Positions 1,928 through 58,849 of a DNA stretch of 64,000 nt are shown here, in pieces (the first letter of the stretch is position 1; every line of letters begins with the position of its first letter). The notes beneath the pieces were generated by a model. That model was not told where the DNA came from. It saw nothing but the letters and a program-made list of their open reading frames with translations, and searched no databases. The translations under genes and the position numbers were made by a program. This stretch comes from Terriglobales bacterium (lineage in GTDB: Bacteria; Acidobacteriota; Terriglobia; Terriglobales; Acidobacteriaceae), in contig DATAPL010000054.1 in the NCBI GenBank assembly GCA_036265205.1, forward strand, positions 1,223 to 65,222, in the 5' to 3' direction.

Positions 1928-1949
1928 CGATTCACCACAGATAGCGAAA

Positions 1950-2663
1950 CTACCGTCTCTTGCCCGCCCGCCGGGGATAAGTTTTACCTTTGGCCAGGTC
2001 GTCCTGCATGGGCAAAATAAGTTTGCGGCAGTAGAACGCCTCGGCAAACTTGTCGGGGGCGCTGCATTCCACTCCACGCAATCTCAGAATCGCCTGGAAA
2101 GTGTCCTCGGTCAGCCATGCCTTGTTGCTCTGCGTCTGAAAGACATCGCAGATGTGCTTGATCTTGCGCTCGCAGACTTCCCTGTTTAGCGGAATAAAGC
2201 AGTTTGGAGAACCCAGGTCGCCGTCGTATTTAGGAATCTCGTATTCCAGAATCAGGTGCCGCCGCCAGGTATTCCAGGTCAAATCGCTGATGGTGCGATG
2301 GTCCTGGTGGCGGTCATCGCGGTAGTGGGTGAAAATCAGATCGGGATTGACCTCCCGCTTCATGGCCTCGAAGAATTCCTTGATCCTTTCCCCCTGGTAG
2401 GGGAAGAAGCCGTCACGGAAATTCTTGACCACTACCCGGCTGCGCAGGGCCTGTTTTAAAAACAGATCGGCGCTGGTGCGCGCTTCCTTCTCCCGCTCCC
2501 GTCCGGAGCTGAAGACCGTCCACTGAACTTCCACATTCGAGTAGTGAGACAGCAGCTGCAGGATAGTGCCACCGCAGCCGATCTCGATATCATCGGAGTG
2601 CGCTCCCAGACATAACACCGTGAGCGGCGCCGCCCTATCCTCGCCCAGGCTTAGCGGCAGCAT
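1950..2663 (-). CDS. PIG-L/LmbE family N-acetylglucosaminyl deacetylase
   Basis: LCLGAHSDDIEIGCGGT and HQDH motifs are typical of the PIG-L zinc deacetylase fold. 237 aa. Confidence 0.85.
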   Translation of the reverse strand: MLPLSLGEDRAAPLTVLCLGAHSDDIEIGCGGTILQLLSHYSNVEVQWTVFSSGREREKEARTSADLFLKQALRSRVVVKNFRDGFFPYQGERIKEFFEAMKREVNPDLIFTHYRDDRHQDHRTISDLTWNTWRRHLILEYEIPKYDGDLGSPNCFIPLNREVCERKIKHICDVFQTQSNKAWLTEDTFQAILRLRGVECSAPDKFAEAFYCRKLILPMQDDLAKGKTYPRRAGKRR

Positions 2664-2690
2664 GCAACTCCACCCCTCCCCACCGCTTGC

Positions 2691-3479
2691 CTAACCTCTG
2701 CCATTGCTCTTCCAGACCTCCCAGGGAGCTCTGCCGGTGGCATACATGCCTTCCAGTTGCTGCTTGTCTTTAAACGTGTCCATGCTGGCCCAGAAACCGT
2801 CGTAGGTGTAGGCCATCAGCTGCTTCTCCTGCAGCAGGCGCTGGAAGGGCTCGCTCACCAGTTCTTCCTTGTCGCGCATGTACTTGAAAATTTCTTTCTT
2901 GAAGATGAAATAGCCGCCGTTGATGCGTATGTCGCCGTTATCGATGGAATGAATGCCCTCCACCAGGCTGCCGCCCGGCTGCATCGAAACCAGGTGGTAG
3001 CTGAGACTGGGACGCACGCACAGGAAGCTGGCTATTTTGTCATGCTGGTGAAAATGCTCCAGATGCTTGGGAAGCGGCAGATCGGTCAGGCCATCGCTGT
3101 AGTTGGCCAGAAATTCCTTCTCCCCCTCCAGATGCTTCTCCACCGCTTTCAGTCTCTGCCCGATGTTGGAATTGACTCCGGTATCGGCAAACGTAATACG
3201 CCAGTCGTGGATGTCGCTGTTCAGCAGTTCGAGATTCTTGCCTCCGCTGGTCAGGATGAAATCGTTGGAGGCGCACTCGTTGTAATTGAGAAAGTAATTC
3301 TTGATGGCATCGGCGCGGTGTCCCAGGCAAAGGATGAAGTCCTTGTGCCCGAAGTGAGCGTAGTACTTCATTACATGCCAGAGGATTGGCCGGTATCCCA
3401 AATGCACCATGGGCTTGGGCAGATCTTCGGCGTCGCGAATTCGCATGCCCAGCCCACCGCAAAATAGAACGACTTTCAT
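2691..3479 (-). CDS. rfbF: Glucose-1-phosphate cytidylyltransferase
   Basis: MKVVLFCGGLGMRIRD...LPKPMVHLGYRPILWHVMKYYAHFGHKDFILCLG matches the RfbF/DdhA N-terminus. The 262-aa length is typical. Confidence 0.9.
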   Translation of the reverse strand: MKVVLFCGGLGMRIRDAEDLPKPMVHLGYRPILWHVMKYYAHFGHKDFILCLGHRADAIKNYFLNYNECASNDFILTSGGKNLELLNSDIHDWRITFADTGVNSNIGQRLKAVEKHLEGEKEFLANYSDGLTDLPLPKHLEHFHQHDKIASFLCVRPSLSYHLVSMQPGGSLVEGIHSIDNGDIRINGGYFIFKKEIFKYMRDKEELVSEPFQRLLQEKQLMAYTYDGFWASMDTFKDKQQLEGMYATGRAPWEVWKSNGRG

Positions 3480-43127: not shown

Positions 43128-44849
43128 ATGAAACTGATTGAAGCTCTGCAAATTGCGAACACTGAGGCAGCGTCCCCGGATGGCTCCTGCGTTGCGGCTC
43201 TCTGCTGCGGCTTCACTCCGCTGCATCTCAAGACATTTGTGGCCGCCTACTTTCGTCGATCTTTTCCCGCGCGGGCGGTCAAGGTCAAGACCGGGTTGTA
43301 CGGCGATCTGGCGGGAACCATTGAAAACTTAGATACGAAAGTCGATTTTGTGCTGGTTGCTATCGAATGGCCCGACCTGGACGCGCGTTTAGGTTTGCGC
43401 ACCACCGGGAACTGGGGACCTGCGAGTCTGGCGCAGATCGTCACCGACGCGCAGGCGCAGTTGCTCAGGCTGCAATCAGCCATCGAAGCCGTGGCATCGC
43501 GGCCGGTTCCAGTCGTGATCTGCCCGCCGACGCTGCCTTTTCCTCCTGTATTTTTTAGCCGTCCCAACGAAGCAGACTCTCTGCAGCTGAATCTGAGAAG
43601 ATTATGGAATAATTTTGCGGCGCAACTGTCCGATCACGCCTCGATTGCATTGGTAAATCCGCAGGAACTGGATCGCATTTCTCCGCCCGCCGCACGGCAC
43701 GATGCTCGCGCCGAGCTGGCCAGCGGCTTTCCTTACCAACTACCCCATACTGATGTGGTTGCGCGTCTGCTGGTTGAGTTGGCGGTTCCCAGGCTTCCCA
43801 AGAAAGGCTTGATCACCGACCTCGACGATACCGTTTGGCTCGGAATTCTCGGGGATGATGGCGTACAGGGCATTTCGTGGGATCTGGATCATCAAAGCCA
43901 GCTCCATGCCACTTACCAGCAGCTGCTGAATGCATTGGTGGAATCGGGCGTGTTGCTAGCCGTCGCGTCCAACAATGATCCGTCCCTGGTGGCAGAAGCG
44001 TTCGCGCGCGCCGACCTGGTGTTGAATCCAAAATACGTGTACCCGGTTGAGGCTTCTCGCGGTCCTAAGTCGGAAGCCATCAAGCGAATCCTGCAAGCCT
44101 GGAACGTCGCTCCGGATAGCCTGGTCTTCGTCGATGATAACCCGCTGGAACTGGCTGAGGTAGGAGCTGCCTACCCGGGCGTCGAAGGCATCCTGTTTCC
44201 CAAGCATGATCCGGCGGCGATCCTAGAATTTTTCCGCACCCTCAGAGACCGCTTCGGGAAAAGGCGCATCCACGATGAGGATCGAGAGCGTCTTGCCAGC
44301 CTGCGTCAATCGCGGGAATTTCACGAAACCGTTCACGGCGCGGGAACCCTGGACAGCGTATTGCAAGGCGCCGAAGGGCGGATCAAATTTACCTACGACA
44401 AAATCCCGGTCGATTCCCGAGCGCTCGAGCTCATCAACAAGACCAACCAGTTCAACCTGAATGCCAGGCGCTACACCGAAGCGTCGTGGTCGTCCCTACT
44501 TTCCCAGGACAATTGTTGGCTGCAAATTGCGGAATATGAAGACCGCTTCGCGCGCCTGGGAAAAATATCGGTGATTGGCGGCTACCGCGAAGGAAACCGG
44601 CTGGCCGTCAGCACCTGGGTCATGAGTTGCCGTGCTTTTTCGCGGCGCATCGAATATCACTGCCTGCGCGAGCTGCTGGAACACTTCGACGCAACTGAAA
44701 TCGAATTCGACTTTATTCCAACCGAGCGCAACGGCCCGGTGCGAGATTTCCTGGCTGCGCTGACCGGCAAGCTTCCCGAATCCGCGACGGCGATAACCGC
44801 CGAGCTCTTTCGGGAAAAGTGTCCGCCCCTTTATCATCAGAAAAAATAA
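43128..44849 (+). CDS. FkbH-like HAD-IIIC family protein (candidate glyceryl-ACP loader)
   Basis: HAD motif I ITDLDDTVWLG, then LLAVASNN and VFVDDNPLE blocks, and a C-terminal GNAT-like region. The 573-aa length is typical of stand-alone FkbH-like proteins. Confidence 0.8.
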   Translation: MKLIEALQIANTEAASPDGSCVAALCCGFTPLHLKTFVAAYFRRSFPARAVKVKTGLYGDLAGTIENLDTKVDFVLVAIEWPDLDARLGLRTTGNWGPASLAQIVTDAQAQLLRLQSAIEAVASRPVPVVICPPTLPFPPVFFSRPNEADSLQLNLRRLWNNFAAQLSDHASIALVNPQELDRISPPAARHDARAELASGFPYQLPHTDVVARLLVELAVPRLPKKGLITDLDDTVWLGILGDDGVQGISWDLDHQSQLHATYQQLLNALVESGVLLAVASNNDPSLVAEAFARADLVLNPKYVYPVEASRGPKSEAIKRILQAWNVAPDSLVFVDDNPLELAEVGAAYPGVEGILFPKHDPAAILEFFRTLRDRFGKRRIHDEDRERLASLRQSREFHETVHGAGTLDSVLQGAEGRIKFTYDKIPVDSRALELINKTNQFNLNARRYTEASWSSLLSQDNCWLQIAEYEDRFARLGKISVIGGYREGNRLAVSTWVMSCRAFSRRIEYHCLRELLEHFDATEIEFDFIPTERNGPVRDFLAALTGKLPESATAITAELFREKCPPLYHQKK

Positions 44850-44855
44850 AAAACT

Positions 44856-45095
44856 ATGGATGACAACCAGGAACGACTTGCTCGCTGCTTTCTCGCAGTT
44901 TTTCCGCGCCTTGCCAAAGCCGATGTGTTGCAGGCTTCCCAGACGTCGGTGTCAGGTTGGGACTCCGTGGCAACGGTGACGTTGCTGACGACCGTAGAAG
45001 AGGAATTCGGAATTCAAGTCGATCTCGAGAACCTGGATCAACTTACTTCATTCGACTCAATACTCAGATATGTCAAGGGCGCGCTCGGACAATAG
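44856..45095 (+). CDS. Acyl carrier protein
   Basis: 79 aa. Phosphopantetheine-attachment motif GWDSVATVTLL. Lies 6 nt after the FkbH-like gene. Confidence 0.8.
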   Translation: MDDNQERLARCFLAVFPRLAKADVLQASQTSVSGWDSVATVTLLTTVEEEFGIQVDLENLDQLTSFDSILRYVKGALGQ

Positions 45096-45139
45096 TCGCC
45101 TTGCTCAAGGCTTGAAAGCGGAACACATGACAAGACTAC

Positions 45140-45955
45140 TCATTTGCTGTGGGCGGAATATTTCCCGCTGATTGCATTCCAGCGAATCTTCAGCATCTCC
45201 AGAAACATCCTGGTACCGTCGCGCAACGGGCTGATGCGAGTGCCTTCGGCGTGCGCCCAGGCTACCGGCACTTCGACCACTTTCAGGTGGAATTTTTTTG
45301 CCAAGTAGAGCAGCTCCGGATCGAAGCCCCAACGCTCGATTCTCTGGCGGGGAAAAATTGTCTGCGCAGCCCGTCGGGTAAAGGCCTTGAATCCGCACTG
45401 TGTATCTTTAAAGCGCAAACCCAAAATGATGCGAAGCAGCAGGTTGAAGACGCGGCCGAAAAGCTGGCGATAAAGCGGCTGGCGCTGGGTTTGCAGATCG
45501 CTGCGCAGCCAGCGTGAACCGATGGCAATGTCGGCCCCGGCATGGAGGGCGGCTAGTAATTTCTCGGCTTCTTCGATGGGAGACGAAAGATCGGCGTCAC
45601 TAAAGAGCAAGGTCTCGCCGTGCGCGTGCAGCATCCCGTTGCGCACGCTGTATCCTTTGCCCCGGTTGCCGGGGTTTTCCAGAAGATGCAGTCGCGGGTT
45701 CTTCTCGGCGTAGCCGCGGATGATGTCAGATGTGTTATCCCGCGAACCGTCGTTTACCGCGATGACTTCAGCGTCCCAGCCGCGCTCCGCGACGTAGGCG
45801 AGAACTCTTTCCAGAGTGGCGCCCACTCGGGCGCCTTCGTTGTAAGCGGGAATGACGATGCTGTAGGCCGGTTTGCGGTCTGGAGGCGTCAGTCTTTGTT
45901 CCGCCAATCCTGGCTCCGCCAGTCGCTGCTCGCTCAGTTTTTGGTCCAAGGACAT
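45140..45955 (-). CDS. GT2 polyprenyl-phosphate hexose synthase (dolichyl-phosphate beta-glucosyltransferase/GtrB-like)
   Basis: YSIVIPAYNEGARVGATLERVL...VIAVNDGSRDNT...NRGKGYSVRNG...LFSDADLSSP is typical of the Dol-P-Glc/Und-P-Glc synthase subgroup. 271 aa, soluble-size. Confidence 0.8.
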   Translation of the reverse strand: MSLDQKLSEQRLAEPGLAEQRLTPPDRKPAYSIVIPAYNEGARVGATLERVLAYVAERGWDAEVIAVNDGSRDNTSDIIRGYAEKNPRLHLLENPGNRGKGYSVRNGMLHAHGETLLFSDADLSSPIEEAEKLLAALHAGADIAIGSRWLRSDLQTQRQPLYRQLFGRVFNLLLRIILGLRFKDTQCGFKAFTRRAAQTIFPRQRIERWGFDPELLYLAKKFHLKVVEVPVAWAHAEGTRISPLRDGTRMFLEMLKIRWNAISGKYSAHSK

Positions 45956-46007: not shown

Positions 46008-49000
46008 TTACTGAACGGTGAGCGTTAGCCCAGCAGTGTGGGTCAGCGATGCCGACGTTCCGGTGACCGTGACAGTGTATGCTCCGGCCGGCGTGCCAGG
46101 AACTGTCGTGCCACCCCCGCCCGAGGACGAGCTGCCACCGCATGCCGCCATGAAGATCAGCCCTGAAAACAGCAGGCATCCCAGCAGGAAGCCCAGCCAT
46201 CGTTTCTTGCGGGATGTGAATCCGGCTCCTACCAAAGCCAGCCCGCCCACCGGCAGCCACATTGCATAGAAAACACCTTTGAAGTGGGGCACGAGCGAAG
46301 CAGTGGTTGAAGCCGTAGTCTTTACCGTCAGGGTGGACGTGCCCGACCCGCCGGCCACAGAAGTGGGACTGAAGGTACATGTTGGCTGCTTCGCCGCGGC
46401 TGGAGTCACGGTGCAGGACAAGCTCACGGCGCTGTTGAATCCGTTGGCCGGGGTGATCGTGATTGTAGACGTGGCCATTCCGCCCTTTGCAACTGAAGCC
46501 GGCGTGAGGGCGGTGGCAGCAATCGTAAAATCAGGAACGGGAGCCGGCGTAACCGTTACATGGACTGTGGTGCTGTGGTTCGTCGAGCCTGCGCCCGCGA
46601 CCGTCACGGTGTAGGCGTTGGCCGGTGTAGTCGCAGAAGTGGTGACTGTCAGGACCGATGTGCCCGAACCTCCCGCAACCGAAGGCGGAACAAAGGCGCA
46701 CGTCGGAGCCGGCGTTACTACAGGAGTAATGCTGCTGCAGGACAGCGCGACTGTGCCGGTGAAGCTGTTGAGAGGAGCGATGGTGATGGTTGAAGTAGCG
46801 GTTCCGCCCGCTACAATCGAAGCCGGTGCAAGGGCAGAGGCCGCGATAGTGAAATCCGGCGCCGGAGGAGGCGCATTCACGGTCAGCCCGACCGAGGTGT
46901 TATGGGTTAACAGTCCGGCTGTGCCGGTCACAGTCACACTGGAAGTGGCTGCCGGAGTTGTAGTGTCAGTGTTGATAGTCAGCGTTGATGGAGTTCCGGG
47001 CGTCACCGACGCGGGGACAAAGTCACACGTGGCGCCGCTGGGCAGACTGGCTCCGTTGCAGGTCAGGGTCACTGAGCCGGTGAAGCCGTTCAGCGCGCTG
47101 ACTGACACGGTATAAGATGCCGGGCTCCCGGCAGTCACGGTCCGGCTGGCCGGGAGCGCGCTGATGCCGAAATCCTGCGTCAGCTTGAAAGCTGCGACCT
47201 GCATTACATAGTTAGCGCTGCCGAAAATAGGAGTAGTGGCTTCGCAACTACCCGCCACCGTTGTGATCTGGTGCTCAGCGTTATCGCCGTTAGGCTGGGT
47301 CAATGCCAGCAGGTTGAAGCCTGATCCGGCGCCAGTGACATGCGTCCCCACAGTTGCGCCGGCCACGATCAGTTCTACCGGCGTGGCGGTGGTGCAAGCG
47401 CCGGTGTCAGCCAGGCTTCCGCTGCCCGCATTCCCCGCTGTGGCGTCCAGAGGACTGATGGGATCGAGCCCGCTGTATTCCAGAATCCTCATATCGGGCG
47501 CAAGCGCCGGCTGATTGAAGGTGGCTGTGATCTGGTTGGGAGTGGTGGTGTCACCCACGATGTTCTTGGCGTAGTAAATCACCTGCGTAAATCCCGTTCC
47601 GGCTAGCGCAGTGCCGGCAACGGTATAAGTATTTCCCTCGGTGTCGGTGACTGCTGTGACGTTTGCAGTAGCATCCGCCCAGCCGATAATGACCACATTC
47701 AGATTGCCCGCATGCTGCAGGCTGGTCATCTGCTGGGACGCAGTTCCCACTAGGTTAGGCGTAGCCGAGACCGCGCCTTGAATGTAGTTGATCGGCCCGG
47801 TTCCCAGGGCAAACGTATAAGCGCCCGGACCGCTCACCGTGCCTCCGTCGGGATTAGTGACAGTAACATCGGCCGGTCCCACCGGAAGTCCGGGAGTGAT
47901 GGCGGTGATGGTGGTGGCATTCTGTACTACTACGTTATTGGCAGGAAGTCCCCCGACCGCGACCGTGGCTCCGTTTTGAAAGTTGGTGCCGGTAACTGTG
48001 ATGGCCGCGCCGTTGGTCGGACCTGTCGTCGGATTCACCGCAGTAAAGGTGGGCGGGATCACTGGCACGAATGTGTACGCCCCAGCAGCTGAGGATAACT
48101 GGCCATCCACGTTGACTACCGTGACGTCCACGGCGCCGTCGCTGTCAGGCGGCGTGAGACAGGTGATGGTGGCTCCGGCGGCCTCTGTGCAATTCACGCC
48201 GGAAATACCTCCGGGAGCGGTGCCAAACAAAACCACCGCGCCCGGCTGAAAATTGGTTCCGGTGATGGTAACTGGGGTGCCGCCGCTATCTGGTCCGGAA
48301 GCAGGCGCAATCGGAGTAACCGTGTCAATAACTGGCGCGGTGAACGTGACTGGAGTGGTGCTGAACGCCGCGACCTGCATTACCCAGTTCCCGTCGGTTA
48401 ATACGCCGGTCGCATTGTACGTGCCTGCGACCTGCGCTGCGTTGGAATCTTCCACAATGTCGCCGAACGGAAGCGTAATCGAGCGCGAGGTGAATCCGCT
48501 ACCAGCCGCCGTGAAATGCGCGTCGGTTGTTCCGGCTCCCACCAGCAGATCGCTGGCGGTTGTGGTTACGGAACCGCTGTCAGCGAGAGTAGAAGCACCG
48601 ACACCTCCGCCCCAAATATCGAGCGGCGAGGTAGCACTCAGCCCGCTGTATTCGAGGATGCGAACATCGGGATGGGCTGCGGCCTGGTTGAAATTGACCG
48701 TAACTACGGGCGTGGTGCTGTTAGGCAGAACAATATTGCGGGCGTAGTAGATCGCCTGCTTCACGCCATTACCGGCGGTCGTGCCAGCCAGCACGTAAAC
48801 GTTGGTATTGTCATCCACCACCGAAGTCACCGACGCCGTGGTATCGCTCCAACCGACGATCACAACGTTCAAATCTCCGGCCGTCTCAGCGGTCGGGTAA
48901 GTCACGTTCATGGTGGCAGTAACTGCATCGACGGTGTTGTTGTTTACCTGGACAAAGGTCTGGGCCTGTGACAGTGCAGACAAGAGCAGCAGGGCCGCCA

Positions 49001-49088
49001 ACGGCGCAACCCTCCGAAGAAAGCTGGTCAGACAGGAAGAAACCGACTTCAGGGCCTGGGGCAACACCGAACTACTGGTCATCACCAA
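46008..49088 (-). CDS. Large Thr/Ser-rich secreted surface protein: duplicated about 200-aa unknown domain, two IPT/TIG domains, three Ig-like repeats, C-terminal hairpin module
   Basis: Signal peptide ...RRVAPLAALLLLSALSQA. Two IPT-like units (SGPDSGGTPVTITGTNF..., TGPTNGAAITVTGTNF...). Three repeats of the pattern DF-I-A...C...C-F-P-SV...LTV-T...YTVTV-G...H-T-V-VTV. See findings. Confidence 0.85.
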   Translation of the reverse strand: MVMTSSSVLPQALKSVSSCLTSFLRRVAPLAALLLLSALSQAQTFVQVNNNTVDAVTATMNVTYPTAETAGDLNVVIVGWSDTTASVTSVVDDNTNVYVLAGTTAGNGVKQAIYYARNIVLPNSTTPVVTVNFNQAAAHPDVRILEYSGLSATSPLDIWGGGVGASTLADSGSVTTTASDLLVGAGTTDAHFTAAGSGFTSRSITLPFGDIVEDSNAAQVAGTYNATGVLTDGNWVMQVAAFSTTPVTFTAPVIDTVTPIAPASGPDSGGTPVTITGTNFQPGAVVLFGTAPGGISGVNCTEAAGATITCLTPPDSDGAVDVTVVNVDGQLSSAAGAYTFVPVIPPTFTAVNPTTGPTNGAAITVTGTNFQNGATVAVGGLPANNVVVQNATTITAITPGLPVGPADVTVTNPDGGTVSGPGAYTFALGTGPINYIQGAVSATPNLVGTASQQMTSLQHAGNLNVVIIGWADATANVTAVTDTEGNTYTVAGTALAGTGFTQVIYYAKNIVGDTTTPNQITATFNQPALAPDMRILEYSGLDPISPLDATAGNAGSGSLADTGACTTATPVELIVAGATVGTHVTGAGSGFNLLALTQPNGDNAEHQITTVAGSCEATTPIFGSANYVMQVAAFKLTQDFGISALPASRTVTAGSPASYTVSVSALNGFTGSVTLTCNGASLPSGATCDFVPASVTPGTPSTLTINTDTTTPAATSSVTVTGTAGLLTHNTSVGLTVNAPPPAPDFTIAASALAPASIVAGGTATSTITIAPLNSFTGTVALSCSSITPVVTPAPTCAFVPPSVAGGSGTSVLTVTTSATTPANAYTVTVAGAGSTNHSTTVHVTVTPAPVPDFTIAATALTPASVAKGGMATSTITITPANGFNSAVSLSCTVTPAAAKQPTCTFSPTSVAGGSGTSTLTVKTTASTTASLVPHFKGVFYAMWLPVGGLALVGAGFTSRKKRWLGFLLGCLLFSGLIFMAACGGSSSSGGGGTTVPGTPAGAYTVTVTGTSASLTHTAGLTLTVQ

Positions 49089-49564: not shown

Positions 49565-51226
49565 ATGTCACAAATAAATTGCGCACCTCCCCCACCGGAT
49601 CGCTTTTCGATTCGGAACCGCAGCATTGCGGACATCCTGCTCTTCCTCGTGGCTTTCGCCACCGGCGGCTCGTTTGCGCAGAACACGGTAAATGTTTTCG
49701 GCGCCAGTACTCCTGTAGTGGTCGACAGCGGAAATCCCAGTTCCATTCTGCTGGGCGTCAGAGTTTTCTCCGACGTTGCGGGACAGGTCGTAGGCTGCAC
49801 CTTCTACAAAGCATCGACCAACATCGGGCCGCACGTGGTCAGCCTGTGGGACTCAGCTGGAAAATTATTGGCCAGCCAAACCACTACGACCGAGACTGAC
49901 TCGGGAGTGCAAGCGGTGCGATTTGCAACACCCATCCCGATGGCTGCAAACCAAACCTTTACCTGCGGGTACTACACGGCTCACGGTCACTATTCGAATG
50001 ACCGGAATGTCTTCACCGTGCAAAAGAATGTCCCTCCCCTGCACGTTCCGATCAATGGTGGAGTATATCTGTACGGCACCTCTGCCACCGCCTTCCCGAG
50101 CACGATCTATCTGGCGAGTAATTACTGGGTCGACGTGTTGTTCGCTCCCGCTGGCGGATCAACCTCGGCAACCTGGATCAGCGGCACCAGCGCCAGCGCG
50201 ACTGGAAGCACCGCCAACATCAGCTGGAATACGGTGGTGCCATCCGATTCGCAAGTCGAATATGGATCGAACACGTCGTACGGCAGCAGCACGACGCTGG
50301 CGGCGACGAGAGTCACCGCGCACTCCGTCGCAATCACTGGCTTGTCGGAGGGAGCTACGTATCACTTCCGGGTGCGATCGAGCGATTCAGACGCCGCATT
50401 GGCAACCGGCGCGGACCATACTCTCACTACAGTCGCTGCAGTTTTGCCGGTAAGCATCTCGACCTCCCCCACAACCGCGAGCATCGCATCGGGCGCTACT
50501 CAGCAATTTATGGCGATGGTAAGCAACGCTGCGAACGCGGCGGTCACCTGGTCGGCGACTGCTGGAACCATCAATGCGTCGGGCCTGTTCACTGCGCCAA
50601 ATGTTTCCGTTCAAACCTCGGTGACCGTGACTGCCGTCAGCCAGGCTGACACCACCAAAAGCGCCTCCGCCATGCTGACCGTGAGCCCCGCGGCCGCGAT
50701 CAGCGTCAGCCCTACCAGCTTGAGCTTTGCCGGAAAAACCGGCACATCCAGTCTCACGCCGGCCAGCGTGAGCATCACAAACACCGGGGCTGGAGCGCTC
50801 ACTTTCACGGGAGTCAGCGACCAGTCCTGGCTGATGCTCTCGCCAGCGTCTGGTACGGCTCCCTCCAGCCTGCAGGTGACTCCGGCCATCACCGGGATGA
50901 AGGCTGGAACTTACACCGGACATGTCACTCTGACCGGCGGTGGCGTGTCGAAGACTGTGACTGTTGCGCTCAGCTTGACCGCGCCTGTGGTCCAGCATTC
51001 GGTGGCATTATCGTGGAAGGCCAGCACCAATACCCACGTCATCAGCTATAGCATGTACCGCTCGACCATCTCAGGCTCTTCTTACGGACTCTCAGCCAGC
51101 GCCATCAGCGGAGTCGCTTACAGCGATGCCAGCGTGCAGTCCGGAACAACCTATTATTACGTTGTTACCGCAGTGGACGAGCAGTGGACGATCAGGGACG
51201 GGAGAGCGGCTATTCGAACCAGGTAA
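49565..51226 (+). CDS. Secreted DUF4082-domain protein with Fn3/Ig-like domains; 3' end frameshifted by an 11-bp tandem duplication
   Basis: Signal peptide ...ADILLFLVAFATGGSFA. DUF4082-like block LGVRVFSDVAGQVVGCTFYK...GPHVVSLWDS...NYWVDVLF. PAP-N/Fn3-like ISWNTVVPSDSQVEYG...YHFRVRS. A terminal Fn3 ends aberrantly (see the repeat at 51170..51191). Confidence 0.8.
   Translation: MSQINCAPPPPDRFSIRNRSIADILLFLVAFATGGSFAQNTVNVFGASTPVVVDSGNPSSILLGVRVFSDVAGQVVGCTFYKASTNIGPHVVSLWDSAGKLLASQTTTTETDSGVQAVRFATPIPMAANQTFTCGYYTAHGHYSNDRNVFTVQKNVPPLHVPINGGVYLYGTSATAFPSTIYLASNYWVDVLFAPAGGSTSATWISGTSASATGSTANISWNTVVPSDSQVEYGSNTSYGSSTTLAATRVTAHSVAITGLSEGATYHFRVRSSDSDAALATGADHTLTTVAAVLPVSISTSPTTASIASGATQQFMAMVSNAANAAVTWSATAGTINASGLFTAPNVSVQTSVTVTAVSQADTTKSASAMLTVSPAAAISVSPTSLSFAGKTGTSSLTPASVSITNTGAGALTFTGVSDQSWLMLSPASGTAPSSLQVTPAITGMKAGTYTGHVTLTGGGVSKTVTVALSLTAPVVQHSVALSWKASTNTHVISYSMYRSTISGSSYGLSASAISGVAYSDASVQSGTTYYYVVTAVDEQWTIRDGRAAIRTR
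51170..51191 (+). repeat. Perfect 11-bp tandem duplication GCAGTGGACGA x2
   Basis: Bases 51170-51180 and 51181-51191 are identical. Removing one copy restores ...VVTAVDDQGRESGYSNQVTAIIP, with a stop (TAG) at 51241-51243. Confidence 0.95.
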
Positions 51227-51563: not shown

Positions 51564-51632
51564 AACCGCAGTCATCCTGGAAGTGAAACTGTCCGCCTTG
51601 GATTGGGGCGTCCTTGGGCGGGAGGAGTGAGT

Positions 51633-54600
51633 GTGAAAGTCACGCAATTTGTGTCTTTCAAGCGGCATCCTCTCCTGCTTCTGCTGCTTGTAGGAATTTC
51701 GACACCTGGGCTGTTGGGCCAATCGCAGACGATCGGTAAATGGACAACCATGTCCAATACCACACCGATCAACCCCATTCATGCTGCATTGATGAAGAAC
51801 GGCAAGATTCTGATTGTTGCAGGTTCGGGAAACTGCCCGCCCTCGCAATCCGGATGTCCACTGGGACCGCCATACGGCCCTTCGAACAATTCCGGCGCCG
51901 AGATCTATGATCCCGTGGCCGGTACCTTCACCCAGCTCACGGTTTCCTGGGACATGTTTTGTAACGACATGATCTCGTTGCCTGACGGGCGTATGTTCAT
52001 CAACGGCGGCAGCATCCAGTACGACCCATTTTATGGATCGCCGCAGTCGGCAATCTTCGATCCTTCAACCAATACTTTTACCAACGTTCAGAACATGGCG
52101 CACGGCCGTTGGTATCCGACGCTGGTAACGCTTGGGGACGGCCGCATCATGACTTTCTCCGGCACCGACGAAAACGGCAACACCAATACCACTGTCGAGA
52201 TTTACACCGTCGGTTCGGGTTGGGGCCAGCCTGATTCAGCCGGCTGGACGCCGCCGCTGTATCCGCGCATGCACCTCCTGCCCAATGGAAAAGTGTTCTA
52301 TTCAGGATCGGATACCAGTTCCAACATCTTCGACCCATCTTCCATGTCGTGGAACCTGAATGTGGCGAATACCATCTACGGTGGCCAGCGCACCTATGGG
52401 ACTTCGGTGCTGCTCCCTCTGACCCCGGCCAACAACTATGACCCGCAGGTCATGATTATGGGCGGGAACAATCCCGCCACCGCCACCACCGAAATAATCG
52501 ATCTGAATGCTTCGCCGCTGAAGTGGAAGTCCGGGCCCAGCATGTCGCAGCCGCGTACCCAGATGAATGCCGTGATCCTGCCGAGCGGCAAGGTTCTGGC
52601 CCTGGGGGGATCGGCGAATGATGAGGACACGGGATCGCTCAGCCTGAATGCGGACCTTTACGATCCAGCGACCAAGACATTTTCATCTGCGGGGCAGAAT
52701 GTTTATGAGCGGCTGTACCACTCGGTGGCTCTGCTTTTGCCCGATGCGACGGTATGGTTGACCGGCGGAAACCCTTCGCGCGGCACTTTCGAGCCACACA
52801 TAGAAATTTACCAGCCGGCTTATTTATTTAATTCCGGCGGTGGACTGGCTACACGCCCGACCATCAGCGGCGCACCCAGTTCGATTTCGTGGGGCAACGC
52901 GTTCACGGTCACAACACCCGATGCCGCTAACATTTCTTCGGTGGTGCTGATACGGGACGGCGCAGTAACCCACTCGTTCGGCATCGATCAGCGCATGGTC
53001 GGCATGTTGTTCACCCCAGGCAGCGGATCTCTGACAGTAACCGCGCCGCCGACCGCGAACATCGCTCCGCCCGGCTATTACATGCTGTTTATCCTCAACA
53101 ATAACGGCGTGCCCTCTGTAGCCAAGTTTGTCCAGCTAACCGCGGGGGGCGGCGGCAATCCCGCTCCGACCCTGTCCGGCGTATCGCCCGCCTCAGGCAC
53201 GACGGCGGGTGGGACTGCGGTGACCGTAAGCGGCACCGGTTTTCTGGCTGGAGCTACGCTGACATTCGGTGGCAACGCGGCGACCAATGTGACGGTAAAT
53301 AGCGGCACCAGCATCACGGCAACCACGCCGGCGCACTCGGCGGGCGCGGTGAATGTGGTAGTAACCAATACTGACAGCCAGAACGCAACCTTGTCGCAGG
53401 GCTTTACCTATACTGCAATATCGAATCCGCCGCCCACGGTAACTGCAATTTCGCCCAACTCCGCATCGACCAGTGGCGGCACCGCGGTGACCGTAACCGG
53501 CACGGGCTTCCTCTCCGGAGCGACGCTGACTCTGGGCGGCACGGCGGCGACCAATGTGACCGTGGCAAACAGCACTACCATCACCGCCATGACCCCCGCG
53601 CATTCGGCTGGGACGGTGAACGTGGTGGTGACTAACAGCGACACTCAGAGCGGCTCTTTGCCGCAAGGTTTTACCTATACGTCGGTCTCCAATCCGCCTC
53701 CAACCGTGACTGCAATCTCGCCGATCTCAGGAACCACTGCCGGCGGGACCGCGGTAACCATCACCGGCACCGGCTTCCTGGCAGGGGACATGGTGAATCT
53801 CGGCGGGACGCTCGCCACGAATACAGCGGTAATCAGCAGCACCACGATGACAGCCACAACTCCGGCGCACTCCGCCGGCGCGGTGAGCGTAGTTGTCACC
53901 AACGCAGAAGAACAAAACGGCACGTTGCCGAACGGCTTCACCTATATCCAGCCCACTCCTGCGCCTGCGATCGCTTCCATCGCGCCCAACAGCGGAACTT
54001 CGAGCGGCGGCACAGCCGTTACCGTGACCGGCACCGGCTTCCTGACGGGAGCGGCTTTGACGATGGGTGGCACTGCGGCCAGTGGTGTAACCGTCCTGAA
54101 CAGCACCACGATCACAGCAACAACCCCGGCACACGCCGCTGGCGTCGTAAGTGTGACGGTGACTAACACCGACAACCAGAGCGGAAATCTGGCCAACGGC
54201 TATACCTATACTTCCACTCCGCCTCCAGGGCTGGGCTTCGGCGTGCCATCGGGGGATCCCAGCGCGGCGACTGTGAGTGCGGGGCAAACCGCGTCTTACA
54301 TTCTTTCTATTGGCGGCGCGGGACTGAGCGGAACCGCTACGTTCAGCTGTACCGGTGCGCCCTTAGGGTCAAAGTGCACGGTGCCGGCCACCCAGCAATT
54401 TAGCGCAACCGCCGCGTCGACCCTCAATGTCAGCGTGACCACCACGTCACGAACCATAGGGGCGCTCCAAATACCGGCTTTCACCCCGGCGACCTGGCTG
54501 TGGACGTTCACCATCGTAGGAATGACATTGCTCCCTGGAGTGCGCGTTTCCCGGCGGTCAGCGCGGCGATTTCTGTGGCTTGCCCCTCTGGCTCTGACGT

Positions 54601-54761
54601 TCTTCCTGGTTTCGTGCGGCGGCGGCGCAAGCAGCGGGAGCGGTGGCGGCAGTCAGCAGCCCAATCCGAACGGAACTCCGGCCGGAACTTATACTCTCAA
54701 CGTGCAGGCGACAGCAGGCGGCGCGACGCAAAATACCTCGCTTACACTAAACGTGCAGTAA
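51633..54761 (+). CDS. Copper radical oxidase (glyoxal/galactose oxidase-like) fused to four IPT/TIG domains, a split Ig-like domain and a membrane hairpin
   Basis: The GTG at 51633 follows GGAGGAG and gives the same N-terminal length as the paralog at 1..779. Putative Cu/cofactor residues lie in MFCND, GRWYPT, LYHS and VTHSF. Four repeats of about 89 aa are SP-SG-T-GGTAVT-TGTGF... The track ORF starts at a TTG at 51603. Confidence 0.85.
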   Translation: MKVTQFVSFKRHPLLLLLLVGISTPGLLGQSQTIGKWTTMSNTTPINPIHAALMKNGKILIVAGSGNCPPSQSGCPLGPPYGPSNNSGAEIYDPVAGTFTQLTVSWDMFCNDMISLPDGRMFINGGSIQYDPFYGSPQSAIFDPSTNTFTNVQNMAHGRWYPTLVTLGDGRIMTFSGTDENGNTNTTVEIYTVGSGWGQPDSAGWTPPLYPRMHLLPNGKVFYSGSDTSSNIFDPSSMSWNLNVANTIYGGQRTYGTSVLLPLTPANNYDPQVMIMGGNNPATATTEIIDLNASPLKWKSGPSMSQPRTQMNAVILPSGKVLALGGSANDEDTGSLSLNADLYDPATKTFSSAGQNVYERLYHSVALLLPDATVWLTGGNPSRGTFEPHIEIYQPAYLFNSGGGLATRPTISGAPSSISWGNAFTVTTPDAANISSVVLIRDGAVTHSFGIDQRMVGMLFTPGSGSLTVTAPPTANIAPPGYYMLFILNNNGVPSVAKFVQLTAGGGGNPAPTLSGVSPASGTTAGGTAVTVSGTGFLAGATLTFGGNAATNVTVNSGTSITATTPAHSAGAVNVVVTNTDSQNATLSQGFTYTAISNPPPTVTAISPNSASTSGGTAVTVTGTGFLSGATLTLGGTAATNVTVANSTTITAMTPAHSAGTVNVVVTNSDTQSGSLPQGFTYTSVSNPPPTVTAISPISGTTAGGTAVTITGTGFLAGDMVNLGGTLATNTAVISSTTMTATTPAHSAGAVSVVVTNAEEQNGTLPNGFTYIQPTPAPAIASIAPNSGTSSGGTAVTVTGTGFLTGAALTMGGTAASGVTVLNSTTITATTPAHAAGVVSVTVTNTDNQSGNLANGYTYTSTPPPGLGFGVPSGDPSAATVSAGQTASYILSIGGAGLSGTATFSCTGAPLGSKCTVPATQQFSATAASTLNVSVTTTSRTIGALQIPAFTPATWLWTFTIVGMTLLPGVRVSRRSARRFLWLAPLALTFFLVSCGGGASSGSGGGSQQPNPNGTPAGTYTLNVQATAGGATQNTSLTLNVQ
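53158..54225 (+). repeat. Four tandem 267-nt (89-codon) IPT/TIG-encoding repeats
   Basis: Repeat units start near 53158, 53427, 53694 and 53958. Both protein and DNA similarity are visible by eye. Confidence 0.85.
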
Positions 54762-56224: not shown

Positions 56225-58708
56225 TCAGCGCGTAACTTGAGATCTCTCCGCGAGAAAGTTGTTCTGGCACTCTTTTGCCGCGGAAAGCAACTGATTGAAT
56301 TCGGGAGCGCTCCGAAGCTTCGCTATCAGGGGATCAGTCTGGAGGGCAGTATAGGCGCAGTAGTGCCCGGCGATGGCGCTCTTGATCAGAGGTATGGCGA
56401 TATCCGGCTTGCCGCAGGCAGCCATGAGAGCGGCATCCCAGTATCGATTTTCGGGATCGGCATCGGCAAGAAACACGGGGGAAACAGCGCGCACTTCTCT
56501 GTCGATCGCGGCCGACGACGACGGATCCAGGCAGGCGACAATGACCCCTCTGGCGGGATCGGAGGAAGATATTTTCCCCGCGCTTTCTGCTGCTTCCGAC
56601 GGTTTTCCCGCCCGTGCGAAATGGAGAGGCAGGTTCGAGATCACCCAGTCCGAGCCCGGGTCCAGGCGCAGAAAGTCCATGCCTCGCTCGGTGTTTCCCA
56701 TCAGATCAAACACGAAAGAGCATGATCGAAACTGATAGTTCCCAGGATCAAGCGACACAGCCGTGTCGCACTCCTGCCCTGCCTCCTGCAGGACACCGCC
56801 GTAGCGCAGGACATAACTCAGGGCAAAGTGCGCCATGGCATTTTCCGGATGTCGCGCCACCAGGGCTTTCGCATCCTGATAAGCCTTGCCCAGTTCGCCT
56901 CGTTCGACCCGGTTGCTGATCAGCAGGCCGGCCGCGTCACTGTAGTCCGGATCCAGACCCAGGGCGCGCTCCTGGGCGGCGGTGGAGCGCTGGAACATGG
57001 CTTCGCCGCCGTTCGAGTAGTGGGATTCATAGTAGTAGCGTTCTCCCACGGCGCGCCACGCCGGCGCATAAGTGGAGTCGAGGCCAACCGAGCGTTCCAG
57101 CATAGCGATGGCTTCTTTATTAGGAGCTCCATCATGGGGCATCGAAACGCTGCGCAAGTACAGATCGTAGGCCTCTTCGTTTTTGGGATGAGTCCGGGCA
57201 TCGGCTGCGTTATCGCTGGCGCCCAGTGCAGGAACCAGTCCCTGACGAACCCTGGTCGCGATCTGTCCCCGCATGGCAATCATGTCCAGAGCTCCCACGC
57301 TGATCGTGTCCCGCCACACCGAGCGATTGTTGGCGACATCGACCGCCTCGAGAGTGATCTGCAACTGATCGCCTTCCTTCAGATAGTGGCCGGTGACGAT
57401 ATTCGCCACTCGCATCTCGCGCCCCGCCTGCTCGAGATCCAGGGTGGCGGCGTTGTATTTGCTGGTAGTGGCGAAGGGACGAATGGACAGCGAGCGCACG
57501 TAGCTGAGCGCAGTGGCGATCTCATCGGGCAAGGCCAGGCGCAGGAAATCAACATCCTTGTCGGAACTCATGTTCTGAAAAGGAAGAACGGCGACGGTGG
57601 TTGCGCCGGCGGAGGTTGAAAGAGAAGGACGAGGCTTGAGTTGCCAAAAAAGAATCGCGCCGATCGCGATCGCGGCGGCGGCAACCAGGGCAATGATTTT
57701 CGCGTACGACCGAGTGTTCCCGGACGCAAACGCCACGTCTTGACCGCTAGCGAAGCGCCGGTTGGAACCGGATGATTGGCTAGCGGTCCCTGCCCCCTCA
57801 CCTTGGGCGGATACCGGCAGCACGATCCTCCCGGTGTCAGTATCGCGCTTCAGCCGCTTCAGGTCGCTCGCCATCTCTGAGGCGTGCTGGTAGCGCAGGG
57901 AGCGATCTTTTTCCAGCGCCTTGTCGATGATGTCTTCCAGCTTGGCGGGGATGTCGGGATTGAGACGAAGCGCAGGCGTTGGTCCTGAATCGAGGATGGC
58001 TTTAAAGATCAATGCGGACGTGTCGCCGCGGAACGGCAAGGTACCGGTGGCCATCTCGTACAGCACCGCACCGAAAGAAAAAAGATCGGTGCGGGCATCG
58101 AGTTCTTTCCCTCTCGCCTGTTCCGGCGACATGTAGGCCACCGTTCCTACCATGGTGCCTGGACTGGTCAAATGCTGATCGTTGATGGTGCCGGTCATGG
58201 TGTTGGCTGAGGCCACCTGGCTGGACGAACCCCCCGTGGTCGCGACTTTCGCCAGCCCAAAATCCAGAATCTTGGCGTGGCCGCGTTTGGTGACGAAGAT
58301 GTTTGCCGGCTTGATATCGCGGTGGACAATGCCCTCTGAATGAGCGGCGTCAAGAGCGTCGGAAATTTCGATGGCGAGCGACAGTAGCGTGTCGTTTTCC
58401 AGCGGACGACCGGCGACCATATGCTTCAGGGTCAGGCCATCCAAAAATTCCATTGCGATAAAGCGCTTGCCTTCATGTTCCCCAATCTCGTAAATGGTGC
58501 AGATGTTGGGATGGTTGAGAGCGGAAGCGGCTCGCGCCTCACGCCGGAAGCGTTCCAGAGCCTGCGGGTCCTGGGCGACGTCGTCGGGAAGGAACTTGAG
58601 CGCCACGAAGCGGCCGAGCGAAGTGTCCTCGGCCTTGTACACCACGCCCATCCCCCCACCGCCCAACTTCTCGATGACGCGGTAATGCGAAATGGTTTGG
58701 CCGATCAT
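56225..58708 (-). CDS. Ser/Thr protein kinase with a TM segment and an extracytoplasmic TPR-like sensor region
   Basis: Hanks kinase motifs [33 protein letters not shown] and [26 protein letters not shown]. Long C-terminal repeat region. Confidence 0.9.
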
Positions 58709-58849
58709 GCCTGGGCGCTCACGGAGTCGGCCAATGTTAGGTGGAATAGCGGCGGCGCGTCAATCAACGTAGTGGTCAGTCCTCACGCTCTGTCATCCTG
58801 AGGAAGCGGGGTCCTTCGCAAGGCGAAGGGCTCCCGGTCATCTGCGCTA

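What the first reader, a model, noticed from the sequence alone, without database searches (positions are those of the whole stretch)
54462..54758. The same split-Ig hairpin/lipobox module recurs at the C-terminus of the unrelated copper-oxidase/IPT protein
After the half-domain ...ATFSCTGAPLGSKCTVPATQQFSATAASTLNVSVTTTSRT, the sequence reads IGALQIPAFTPATWLWTFTIVGMTLLPG-VRVSRRSARR-FLWLAPLALTFFLVSC-GGGASSGSGGGSQQPNPN, followed by GTPAGTYTLNVQATAGGATQNTSLTLNVQ-stop.

The order of elements is identical to that at 46011..46295: helix, Arg cluster, helix with a textbook lipobox (LVSC), G/S linker, and a closing beta-strand pair ending L-T-L-x-V-Q.

The N-terminal parts of the two proteins are otherwise different. 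This points to a portable module rather than a chance hydrophobic stretch.

An in-frame GTG (the V of VRVSRR) could also initiate a 73-aa lipoprotein precursor, MRVSRRSARRFLWLAPLALTFFLVSCGGG....
Basis: partly seen in the sequence, partly recalled or inferred. Interest (0 to 1): 0.72.

Follow-up and report, generated by a model that had tools for sequence, protein, structure and literature searches.

The report
Lipoprotein-type C-terminal membrane anchor module
Two large secreted proteins of a soil Acidobacterium end in the same portable tail, an Ig-like domain interrupted by a membrane hairpin carrying an internal lipoprotein signal; NCBI already curates this tail as the "lipo-invert" anchoring domain, but nobody has tested how it works.

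Summary
Window 54462..54758 (+) encodes the last 99 residues of a 1042/1052-aa secreted protein made of a glyoxal-oxidase-like domain and IPT/TIG repeats. The element order is: half of an Ig-like domain, TM helix, Arg cluster, hydrophobic helix ending in the lipobox LVSC, G/S linker, two closing beta-strands.

The same order closes the 1026-aa protein on the minus strand (46011..46295).

Both tails match NCBIfam NF058595 "lipo-invert putative C-terminal anchoring domain" well above its cut-off. They also score 129 and 68 bits against an independent family profile, where shuffles reach at most 8 bits.

- The lipobox Cys is present in all 113 relatives examined.
- The module sits at the extreme C-terminus of many different exported cargo proteins, almost all from Terriglobia.
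- AlphaFold models and an alignment with uninterrupted sister repeats support a split Ig-like domain.
- A separate 73-aa lipoprotein gene is not supported.

The most likely mechanism is inferred, not shown. The first helix stops export. The second re-exports the last ~45 residues and presents the Cys to Lgt and LspA. The lipidated tail then completes the Ig fold and anchors the cargo.

This is a new member of a curated but experimentally uncharacterised family. I found no paper on it.

The parts
51633..54761 (+). Gene for the cargo protein with the tail. It is 1042 aa from GTG 51633; the longest ORF starts at TTG 51603 and gives 1052 aa. Residue numbers below use the 1052-aa ORF.
   Evidence: ORF list. 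Identical to NCBI nr protein P0070 from GTG 51633.
51633..51719 (+). Predicted N-terminal Sec (type I) signal peptide, MKVTQFVSFKRHPLLLLLLVGISTPGLLG. The cleavage site is approximate.
   Evidence: Read from the sequence. 33 of 39 complete relatives have a comparable N-terminal hydrophobic signal and no other TM segment in the cargo part.
51903..53138 (+). Glyoxal/galactose-oxidase-like Kelch propeller plus GO-like E-set domain (the cargo enzyme).
   Evidence: Pfam Glyoxal_oxid_N, Kelch and GO-like_E_set. NCBIfam GlxA scores 286 bits, below its 800-bit equivalog cut-off.
53160..54260 (+). Four IPT/TIG repeats (choice-of-anchor Z type) plus a linker. Boundaries are approximate.
   Evidence: Pfam TIG, 4 stretches, 8.7e-59. 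NCBIfam NF058597, 4 stretches.
54261..54455 (+). N-terminal part (strands A-E) of the split Ig-like domain, aa 887-951, ending in TTTSRT. It contains the conserved Cys pair C916 and C925.
   Evidence: AlphaFold pLDDT 94-96. Invariant C30 and C39 in alignment A1. Aligns to the intact repeats of protein 2.
54456..54488 (+). Linker IGALQIPAFTP between the Ig half-domain and helix 1.
   Evidence: Coordinates. Low pLDDT in the model.
54489..54542 (+). Helix 1 (ATWLWTFTIVGMTLLPGV), the proposed stop-transfer TM segment running from outside to inside.
   Evidence: Hydropathy peak. Helix in the model. Conserved W-rich start across the family.
54543..54569 (+). Basic loop RVSRRSARR (5 Arg, no acidic residue), proposed to be cytoplasmic.
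   Evidence: Most relatives have 3-7 basic residues here. Start-codon analysis.
54570..54617 (+). Helix 2, a lipoprotein-type h-region FLWLAPLALTFFLVS plus the lipobox L-V-S-C. The Cys1005 codon TGC is at 54615..54617.
   Evidence: A PROSITE-type lipobox rule is met in 98 of 113 family tails and the Cys is present in 113 of 113. C119 and G120 are invariant.
54618..54671 (+). Gly/Ser-rich linker GGGASSGSGGGSQQPNPN following the lipobox Cys.
   Evidence: pLDDT below 50. Residue +2 is Gly in 95 of 98 tails.
54672..54758 (+). Closing strands F-G of the Ig-like domain (GTPAGTYTLNVQATAGGATQNTSLTLNVQ). The stop codon is at 54759..54761.
   Evidence: pLDDT 95-97. T139, G142 and Y144 are invariant. Aligns to strands F-G of the intact repeats.
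46008..49088 (-). Gene for the second tail-bearing protein (1026 aa). It has an N-terminal signal peptide, two copies of a domain with no Pfam match, two IPT/TIG repeats, and three Ig-like repeats of which the last is split.
46302..46532 (-). Sister copy: strands A-E of the split Ig-like repeat (aa 853-929).
   Evidence: 61% identical to the intact repeat 2. pLDDT 92-97.
46215..46274 (-). Sister copy: helix 1 (VFYAMWLPVGGLALVGAGFT).
46200..46214 (-). Sister copy: basic loop SRKKR.
46140..46199 (-). Sister copy: helix 2 plus the lipobox M-A-A-C (Cys983).
46011..46139 (-). Sister copy: G/S linker (46098..46139) and closing strands F-G (46011..46097), ending in LTLTVQ.
   Evidence: pLDDT 96-97.

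Best explanation
The tail is a member of the 'lipo-invert' C-terminal anchoring module. It is an Ig-like beta-sandwich whose loop between strands E and F carries an insertion of about 70 residues. The insertion consists of a TM helix, a cytoplasmic Arg/Lys cluster, and a second helix that is a complete lipoprotein-type signal (n-region, h-region, lipobox Cys).

Shown here:
- The architecture of the module.
- Membership of the curated family.
- An invariant Cys with a canonical lipobox.
- A strictly C-terminal position.
- Portability across many exported cargo types.
- A predicted fold in which the last two strands complete the domain.

Inferred sequence of events:
1. The N-terminal Sec signal exports the cargo.
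2. Helix 1 stops transfer, and the basic loop stays in the cytoplasm.
3. Helix 2 re-inserts N-in/C-out and exports the last ~45 residues.
4. Lgt attaches diacylglycerol to Cys1005, and LspA probably cuts just before it.
5. The lipidated ~47-residue tail supplies strands F and G to the Ig-like domain. The large cargo is thereby tied to the membrane through a C-terminal lipid anchor, and also through helix 1 unless that is later trimmed.

No dedicated sorting enzyme is needed, only the general lipoprotein machinery.
For: Family membership and statistics:
- NCBIfam NF058595 hits at 70.5 and 96.5 bits against a cut-off of 37.
- Scores against an independent profile are far above shuffles.

The lipoprotein signal:
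- Cys present in 113 of 113 tails, and a PROSITE-type lipobox in 98 of 113.
- Position -3 is L in 61; position -1 is S, G or A; position +2 is G in 95 of 98.
- The h-region is 11-20 residues (one of 24).
- The post-Cys length is tightly held at 37-50 residues, median 44.
- Most tails have 3-7 basic residues between the helices.

The split Ig domain:
- The split repeat of protein 2 is 61% identical to the intact neighbouring repeat, with a single clean insertion between 'TTSAT' and 'TPANAYTVTV'.
- AlphaFold gives pLDDT 94-97 for both halves of the sandwich and two helices in between, for both window copies.
- Foldseek alignments to Ig/Fn3-like sandwiches span the whole query at rmsd 2-2.7 A.

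Portability and distribution:
- 34 of 35 genome loci carry the tail.
- Their cargo includes choice-of-anchor D, FG-GAP, GlxA-like oxidase, SBBP, pro-kumamolisin protease and ExeM/NucH nuclease domains.
- The tail profile finds 794 cluster representatives at E<=1e-10, almost always at the last residue of the protein.

Topology and genomic context:
- 33 of 39 complete relatives have an N-terminal Sec signal and no other TM segment.
- No conserved neighbouring processing-enzyme gene appears in 49 loci.
Against: - There is no experimental evidence for lipidation or cleavage, in this family or in any protein with an internal lipobox that I could find.
- Lgt and LspA are only known to act on N-terminal signals.
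- If LspA cuts, the cargo still remains covalently attached to helix 1, so what the lipid adds is unclear without a further, unidentified trimming step.
- I could not inspect model coordinates. Pairing of strands F-G with strands A-E is inferred from confidence values, the Foldseek span and homology to intact repeats.
- Helix 1 is only moderately hydrophobic in protein 1 (best 15-residue Kyte-Doolittle mean 1.57).
Confidence: 0.62

Rival explanations
1. The tail is a plain two-helix membrane hairpin that stays uncut. It tethers the Ig-like domain and its cargo to the inner membrane. The Cys is either not modified or lipidated without cleavage.
For: Two helices separated by a basic loop obey the positive-inside rule. 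Internal lipoboxes have no documented processing. An uncut chain needs no extra step to explain anchoring.
Against: A simple hairpin does not need an invariant Cys preceded by L-[AVSC]-[SGA] and followed by Gly in nearly every member. Helix 2 is often only 12-15 residues long. That length is typical of a signal-peptide h-region and short for a stable TM span.
Confidence: 0.22
2. Helix 1 plus the basic cluster is a classical C-terminal sorting signal, of the LPXTG, PEP-CTERM, GlyGly-CTERM or MYXO-CTERM type. An unknown dedicated enzyme removes it, perhaps near the conserved TTTSR motif.
For: A motif (TTTSRT, with Thr and Arg at least 90% conserved), a TM helix and a basic cluster mimic the three-part sorting signals. 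Cargo types such as ExeM nucleases and choice-of-anchor domains are typical sortase-type substrates elsewhere.
Against: - The signal is not at the extreme C-terminus.
- This reading does not explain the invariant lipobox or the conserved closing strands.
- No NCBIfam sorting-signal model hits the tails.
- No sortase-like gene recurs next to 49 loci.
Confidence: 0.1
3. The tail is a separate small lipoprotein gene (73 aa, starting at GTG 54540) that overlaps or has fused to the cargo gene.
For: An in-frame GTG precedes the basic cluster in protein 1. Some database entries are 75-108-aa 'proteins' consisting of the tail only.
Against: - No Shine-Dalgarno sequence lies at a usable spacing.
- The sister copy has no start-like codon immediately before its basic cluster.
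- The residue at that position varies (M, V, R, T, G) across homologues.
- The short entries begin at different points inside helix 1, as expected for fragments or frameshifted calls.
- The reading frame is continuous with the cargo in 68 of 120 homologues and in nearly all of 49 loci.
Confidence: 0.03
4. The resemblance of the two tails is a chance product of hydrophobic and Gly/Ser/Thr-rich composition.
For: Direct BLASTP of the two tails is only E=0.038.
Against: Profile scores are 129.5 and 68.3 bits against a shuffle maximum of 8.2. Both tails are curated-family hits. Hundreds of relatives share the same ordered elements.
Confidence: 0.01

Closest known systems
NCBIfam NF058595 'invert_tail', the lipo-invert putative C-terminal anchoring domain
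   Same: Both window tails match the full 113-position model above its cut-off, at the extreme C-terminus. So do 34 of 35 relatives from Terriglobia genomes.
   Different: Nothing tested here differs, so this is membership. The family has a name and a model only. I found no paper or experiment, and I could not read the curators' description. I therefore cannot say whether the split-Ig aspect is already recorded.
Classical bacterial lipoprotein signal peptides (Lgt/LspA/Lnt pathway; PROSITE PS51257-type lipobox)
   Same: A basic n-region, an 11-20-residue h-region, the lipobox L-[AVS]-[SGA]-C and a small residue at +2.
   Different: The signal lies about 1000 residues into the protein, after a stop-transfer helix, rather than at the N-terminus. 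The 'mature lipoprotein' would be only about 44 residues long.
C-terminal sorting/anchoring signals handled by dedicated enzymes (LPXTG/sortase, PEP-CTERM/exosortase, GlyGly-CTERM/rhombosortase, MYXO-CTERM, PGF-CTERM/archaeosortase). This comparison rests on my own knowledge.
   Same: A portable C-terminal module on diverse exported cargo, containing a TM helix followed by a basic cluster. The cargo families overlap (ExeM/NucH nucleases, choice-of-anchor domains).
   Different: A second helix with a lipobox and a structured beta tail follow the basic cluster. No sorting-signal model hits the tails. No dedicated enzyme gene is seen nearby.
Donor-strand complementation of Ig-like pilins in chaperone-usher pili. 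This comparison rests on my own knowledge.
   Same: If LspA cuts, an Ig-like fold would be completed by strands from a separate polypeptide.
   Different: Here both pieces come from one translation product and two strands are donated. Whether cleavage occurs is untested.
Streptomyces GlxA radical copper oxidase (NCBIfam NF052501)
   Same: The cargo has the Kelch propeller and the GO-like E-set domain. It also lies in a glycosyltransferase-rich locus.
   Different: It scores 286 bits against an 800-bit equivalog cut-off, so it is GlxA-like only. To my knowledge GlxA is anchored by an N-terminal helix, not by a C-terminal module.

Membership tests
NCBIfam NF058595 lipo-invert C-terminal anchoring domain | Score above the curated cut-off (37 bits) over the whole model | tested here: met
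   70.5 bits for aa 940-1052 (model positions 2-113) and 96.5 bits for aa 917-1026.
NCBIfam NF058595 lipo-invert C-terminal anchoring domain | Located at the extreme C-terminus of an exported protein | tested here: met
   Both tails end at the stop codon. The same holds in 49 genome loci and in nearly all of the top 150 representatives. N-terminal Sec signals are present.
NCBIfam NF058595 lipo-invert C-terminal anchoring domain | Ordered elements: TM helix, basic cluster, second helix ending in a lipobox Cys, and a tail of about 40-50 residues | tested here: met
NCBIfam NF058595 lipo-invert C-terminal anchoring domain | Actual membrane anchoring or lipidation | not testable with these tools
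   Needs labelling, mass spectrometry or fractionation. No literature found.
Bacterial lipoprotein precursor (PROSITE PS51257-type) | Lipobox with a preceding uncharged h-region and a basic n-region | tested here: met
   LVSC and MAAC in the window. The rule is met in 98 of 113 family tails, and the Cys is present in 113 of 113.
Bacterial lipoprotein precursor (PROSITE PS51257-type) | The signal is at the N-terminus, with the Cys within roughly the first 15-35 residues | tested here: not met
   The Cys is at residue 1005 of 1052 and at residue 983 of 1026. The N-termini carry ordinary type I signals.
Sortase-type C-terminal sorting signals (LPXTG, PEP-CTERM, GlyGly-CTERM, MYXO-CTERM) | Motif, TM helix and basic cluster as the last ~30-40 residues, matching a curated signal model | tested here: not met
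   No such NCBIfam model hits the tails. About 63 residues follow the basic cluster.
Sortase-type C-terminal sorting signals (LPXTG, PEP-CTERM, GlyGly-CTERM, MYXO-CTERM) | A dedicated processing enzyme encoded nearby or co-occurring | tested here: inconclusive
   The only recurrent neighbour, in 10 of 49 loci, is a Ser/Thr kinase-TPR protein. Genome-wide co-occurrence was not tested.
Radical copper oxidase GlxA (NF052501 equivalog) | Score above the 800-bit equivalog cut-off | tested here: not met
   286 bits, covering only model positions 261-644.

The most novel reading that the evidence does not exclude
The general lipoprotein machinery (Lgt/LspA) cuts one polypeptide inside a loop of an Ig-like domain. 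This would yield a non-covalent two-chain protein in which a ~44-residue lipopeptide donates the last two strands and acts as a C-terminal lipid anchor. After trimming of the leftover helix hairpin, the anchor could let the Lol pathway carry large enzymes and adhesins to the outer membrane or cell surface of Acidobacteria. That would be C-terminal lipid anchoring without any sortase.
Probability: 0.3. Interest if true: 0.8.

Novelty: new member of a known kind. Interest (0 to 1): 0.5.

Why it matters
If the inferred mechanism is right, this would be the first case of a bacterial lipoprotein signal working internally, near a C-terminus. It would also be a way of lipid-anchoring large secreted enzymes that needs no dedicated sortase.

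The family is large. The tail profile finds 794 clusters (at 50% identity) at E<=1e-10, nearly all from soil Terriglobia. Signal-peptide predictors that look only at N-termini would not be expected to detect it, which would affect surface-proteome predictions for a dominant soil phylum. NCBI's own name for this very protein is still 'IPT/TIG domain-containing protein'.

A short tail that can be fused genetically and causes C-terminal lipidation could also be a useful tool.

As it stands, the family is already curated in NCBIfam. The window therefore adds two members and some anatomy, not a new class.

Tried and rejected
- Pairwise BLASTP of the two tails was only borderline (E=0.038). I replaced it with profile and shuffle tests.
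- The search for related loci with the broad alignment A1 failed because no stretch was conserved enough. It worked with the tighter tail alignment A3, but that finds only tails containing NPNGTPAGT, so the taxonomic picture is biased towards that subfamily.
- The internal GTG start as a separate small gene was rejected.
- A search for a conserved neighbouring processing enzyme found only Ser/Thr kinase-TPR genes, in 10 of 49 loci.
- The promoter and terminator scan around the gene showed nothing above the shuffle expectation.
- A PDB sequence search found no solved relative.
- Five literature searches found nothing. Terms included lipo-invert, NF058595, internal and C-terminal lipobox, and choice-of-anchor.
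- The C-terminus of the paralogue at 1..779 could not be read. Both the JGI contig and the NCBI contig end inside the gene.
- I could not obtain model coordinates to measure contacts between strands directly.
Full report
**1. The observation**

- It is the end of an ORF running 51603..54761.
- From the GTG at 51633 this ORF is identical to a 1042-aa NCBI protein named 'IPT/TIG domain-containing protein [Terriglobales bacterium]'.
- The window comes from a 161-kb JGI soil metagenome contig.
- The protein has an N-terminal Sec signal, a glyoxal/galactose-oxidase-like Kelch propeller with a GO-like E-set domain, four IPT/TIG repeats, and then the tail.
It closes a 1026-aa ORF at 46008..49088.
- A six-frame motif scan finds no third copy in the window.

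**2. More than chance**

Direct BLASTP of the two tails is only borderline (E=0.038, 33% identity). Three other results settle the question:
- Both tails hit one curated NCBIfam model, NF058595 'lipo-invert putative C-terminal anchoring domain'. Scores are 70.5 and 96.5 bits against a cut-off of 37, over essentially the whole 113-position model and ending at the last residue.
- Against an HMM I built from 42 independent tails in GTDB genomes, the two window tails score 129.5 and 68.3 bits. 500 composition-preserving shuffles of each reach at most 8.2 and 6.7 bits.
Both proteins also share IPT/TIG (choice-of-anchor Z) repeats. Only their N-terminal domains differ.

**3. Anatomy**

In protein 1 the parts are as follows (numbering of the 1052-aa ORF).

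| Part | Residues | Sequence |
|---|---|---|
| Ig-like strands A-E | 887-951 | ends TTTSRT |
| Linker | 952-962 | IGALQIPAFTP |
| Helix 1 | 963-980 | ATWLWTFTIVGMTLLPGV |
| Basic loop | 981-989 | RVSRRSARR |
| Helix 2 with lipobox | 990-1005 | FLWLAPLALTFFLVS + C (lipobox LVSC) |
| G/S linker | 1006-1023 | GGGASSGSGGGSQQPNPN |
| Strands F-G | 1024-1052 | GTPAGTYTLNVQATAGGATQNTSLTLNVQ |

I examined 113 family tails: the two window tails, 68 database hits and 49 genome loci.
- The Cys is present in all 113, and a PROSITE-type lipobox rule is met in 98.
- Position -3 is mostly Leu; position -1 is Ser, Gly or Ala; position +2 is Gly in 95 of 98.
- The h-region is 11-20 residues (one of 24).
- The piece after the Cys is 37-50 residues long, median 44.
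- The inter-helix loop carries 3-7 basic residues in most members.
- In alignment A1 the invariant positions are the Ig-domain Cys pair, the lipobox Cys-Gly, and T, G and Y of the F strand.

**4. The Ig-like domain is split**

Protein 2 has three tandem Ig-like repeats, at aa 639-744, 745-852 and 853-1026.
- The last repeat is 61% identical to the intact second repeat.
- It differs by one clean insertion between 'TTSAT' and 'TPANAYTVTV', that is, in the loop before the last two strands.

AlphaFold2 models were made for both window tails, each with a family alignment.
- Strands A-E get pLDDT 92-97 and the two terminal strands 95-97.
- Two lower-confidence helices and a disordered G/S linker lie between them.

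I could not read the model coordinates, so direct strand pairing remains an inference from these three lines of evidence.

**5. Portability and distribution**

- A scan of one genome per GTDB species for NPNGTPAGT gave 49 loci. Nearly all are from Terriglobia/Acidobacteriota MAGs. A few short contigs are binned as Gemmatimonadaceae, Verrucomicrobiia or Dormiibacterota.
- In every locus the module ends the reading frame it lies in. Most of these ORFs are 400 to more than 2000 codons long; three loci show only a short or frameshifted frame.
- 34 of 35 locus proteins hit NF058595.
- Their cargo is diverse: choice-of-anchor D (18), FG-GAP (10), GlxA-like oxidases (7), SBBP propellers (5), pro-kumamolisin proteases (4), ExeM/NucH nucleases (3) and others.
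- 33 of 39 complete ORFs have an ordinary N-terminal signal peptide, and none has another TM segment in the cargo part.
- An exhaustive profile search of 1.84 billion cluster representatives gives 7086 hits at E<=1e-3 and 794 at E<=1e-10. Among the top 150, full-length matches end at or next to the protein's last residue in all but a handful.
- Of the 120 closest homologues of the glyoxal-oxidase-like cargo, 68 keep the tail, 29 end in a different anchor-less domain, and 23 are fragments or frameshifted.

**6. Side proposals**

*The in-frame GTG (V980).*
- It has no Shine-Dalgarno sequence at a usable distance.
- The sister copy has no start-like codon immediately before its basic cluster.
- The residue at this position is not conserved across homologues.
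- The 75-108-aa tail-only database entries begin at varied points inside helix 1, as fragments do.
- A separate 73-aa lipoprotein gene is therefore unlikely.

*The paralogue at window 1..779 (minus strand).*
- It is cut by the contig end in both the JGI and the NCBI assemblies.
- Its closest full-length relative (P0071, 87% identity, 803 aa) ends '...WVMQMATFRAHP' with no anchor.
- It probably lacks the module.

**7. Mechanism**

Shown: the architecture, the invariant canonical lipobox, positive-inside charge placement, the C-terminal position, the exported cargo, and the absence of a recurrent neighbouring processing gene. The only recurrent neighbour is a Ser/Thr kinase-TPR protein, in 10 of 49 loci.

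Inferred sequence of events:
1. Sec exports the cargo.
2. Helix 1 stops transfer.
3. Helix 2 acts as an internal lipoprotein signal and exports the last ~45 residues.
4. Lgt lipidates the Cys, and LspA probably cuts before it.
5. The lipidated tail completes the Ig-like fold and anchors the cargo.

Open points:
- It is not known whether cleavage occurs.
- It is not known whether the leftover helix hairpin is trimmed.
- It is not known in which membrane the product ends up.

The main rival is an uncut two-helix anchor. It explains anchoring more simply, but it does not explain the invariant lipobox or the short, signal-like second helix.

**8. Relation to known things**

- The tail is a member of NCBIfam NF058595 (membership tested and met).
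- It works like a lipoprotein signal but fails the defining N-terminal position.
- It resembles sortase-type C-terminal signals in portability and in the TM-plus-basic-cluster layout. It matches none of their models, and extra structured sequence follows the basic cluster.
- No paper mentions the family or an internal lipobox of this kind in the library searched.
- No relative has a solved structure.

**9. Verdict**

The family is already curated but experimentally blank. Novelty: new member of a known kind. Interest is moderate (0.5), because the implied mechanism is unusual and directly testable, but the discovery itself is not new.

Noticed in passing
window 46008..49088 (-), aa ~40-500 of protein 2; window 1..779 (-): Protein 2 starts with two copies of a domain that has no Pfam match (...NLNVVIVGWSDTTASV...YYARNIV...WVMQVAAFS). 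The same domain forms the anchor-less C-terminus (...WVMQMATFKAAP) of 29 of 120 GlxA-like homologues. It is also beginning to appear in the truncated paralogue at the window edge. It looks like an uncharacterised shuffled domain.
   Followed up: partly
window 56228..58759 (-); L012:1011-3959 and 9 other loci: A Ser/Thr protein kinase with TPR repeats lies next to lipo-invert-tailed genes in 10 of 49 genome loci. It also lies just downstream of protein 1 in the window. This could be regulatory linkage, or simply reflect how abundant these kinases are in Acidobacteria.
   Followed up: partly
window 1040..3479 and 43128..45955; L001: The two tailed proteins sit in a glycan/EPS-type locus:
- GT2 and GT4 transferases
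- a PIG-L deacetylase
- dTDP-sugar isomerase and epimerases
- a MatE/polysaccharide-synthase-type flippase
- an FkbH-like HAD protein followed by a small (79-aa) ORF that looks like an acyl carrier protein (not checked)

To my knowledge a GlxA-like radical copper oxidase next to glycosyltransferases recalls the Streptomyces cslA-glxA pair.
   Followed up: no
window 49565..51226 (+): Between the two tailed genes lies a 553-aa exported protein with DUF4082, Fn3/purple-acid-phosphatase-N and BACON_2 domains and no C-terminal anchor. Its end (…DEQWTIRDGRAAIRTR) looks abrupt and could reflect a truncation.
   Followed up: no
L015, L019; P0022, P0122: Several relatives, including two loci from MFD-named MAG assemblies, are frameshifted inside or just after the lipobox region. 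This produces spurious short or extended gene calls. Such errors explain the tail-only 'proteins' in the databases.
   Followed up: partly
P0045 (182 aa, on a 144-kb contig): This is a minimal family member: an N-terminal signal peptide, one split Ig-like domain and the hairpin/lipobox tail, with no other cargo. It would be a convenient test object.
   Followed up: no
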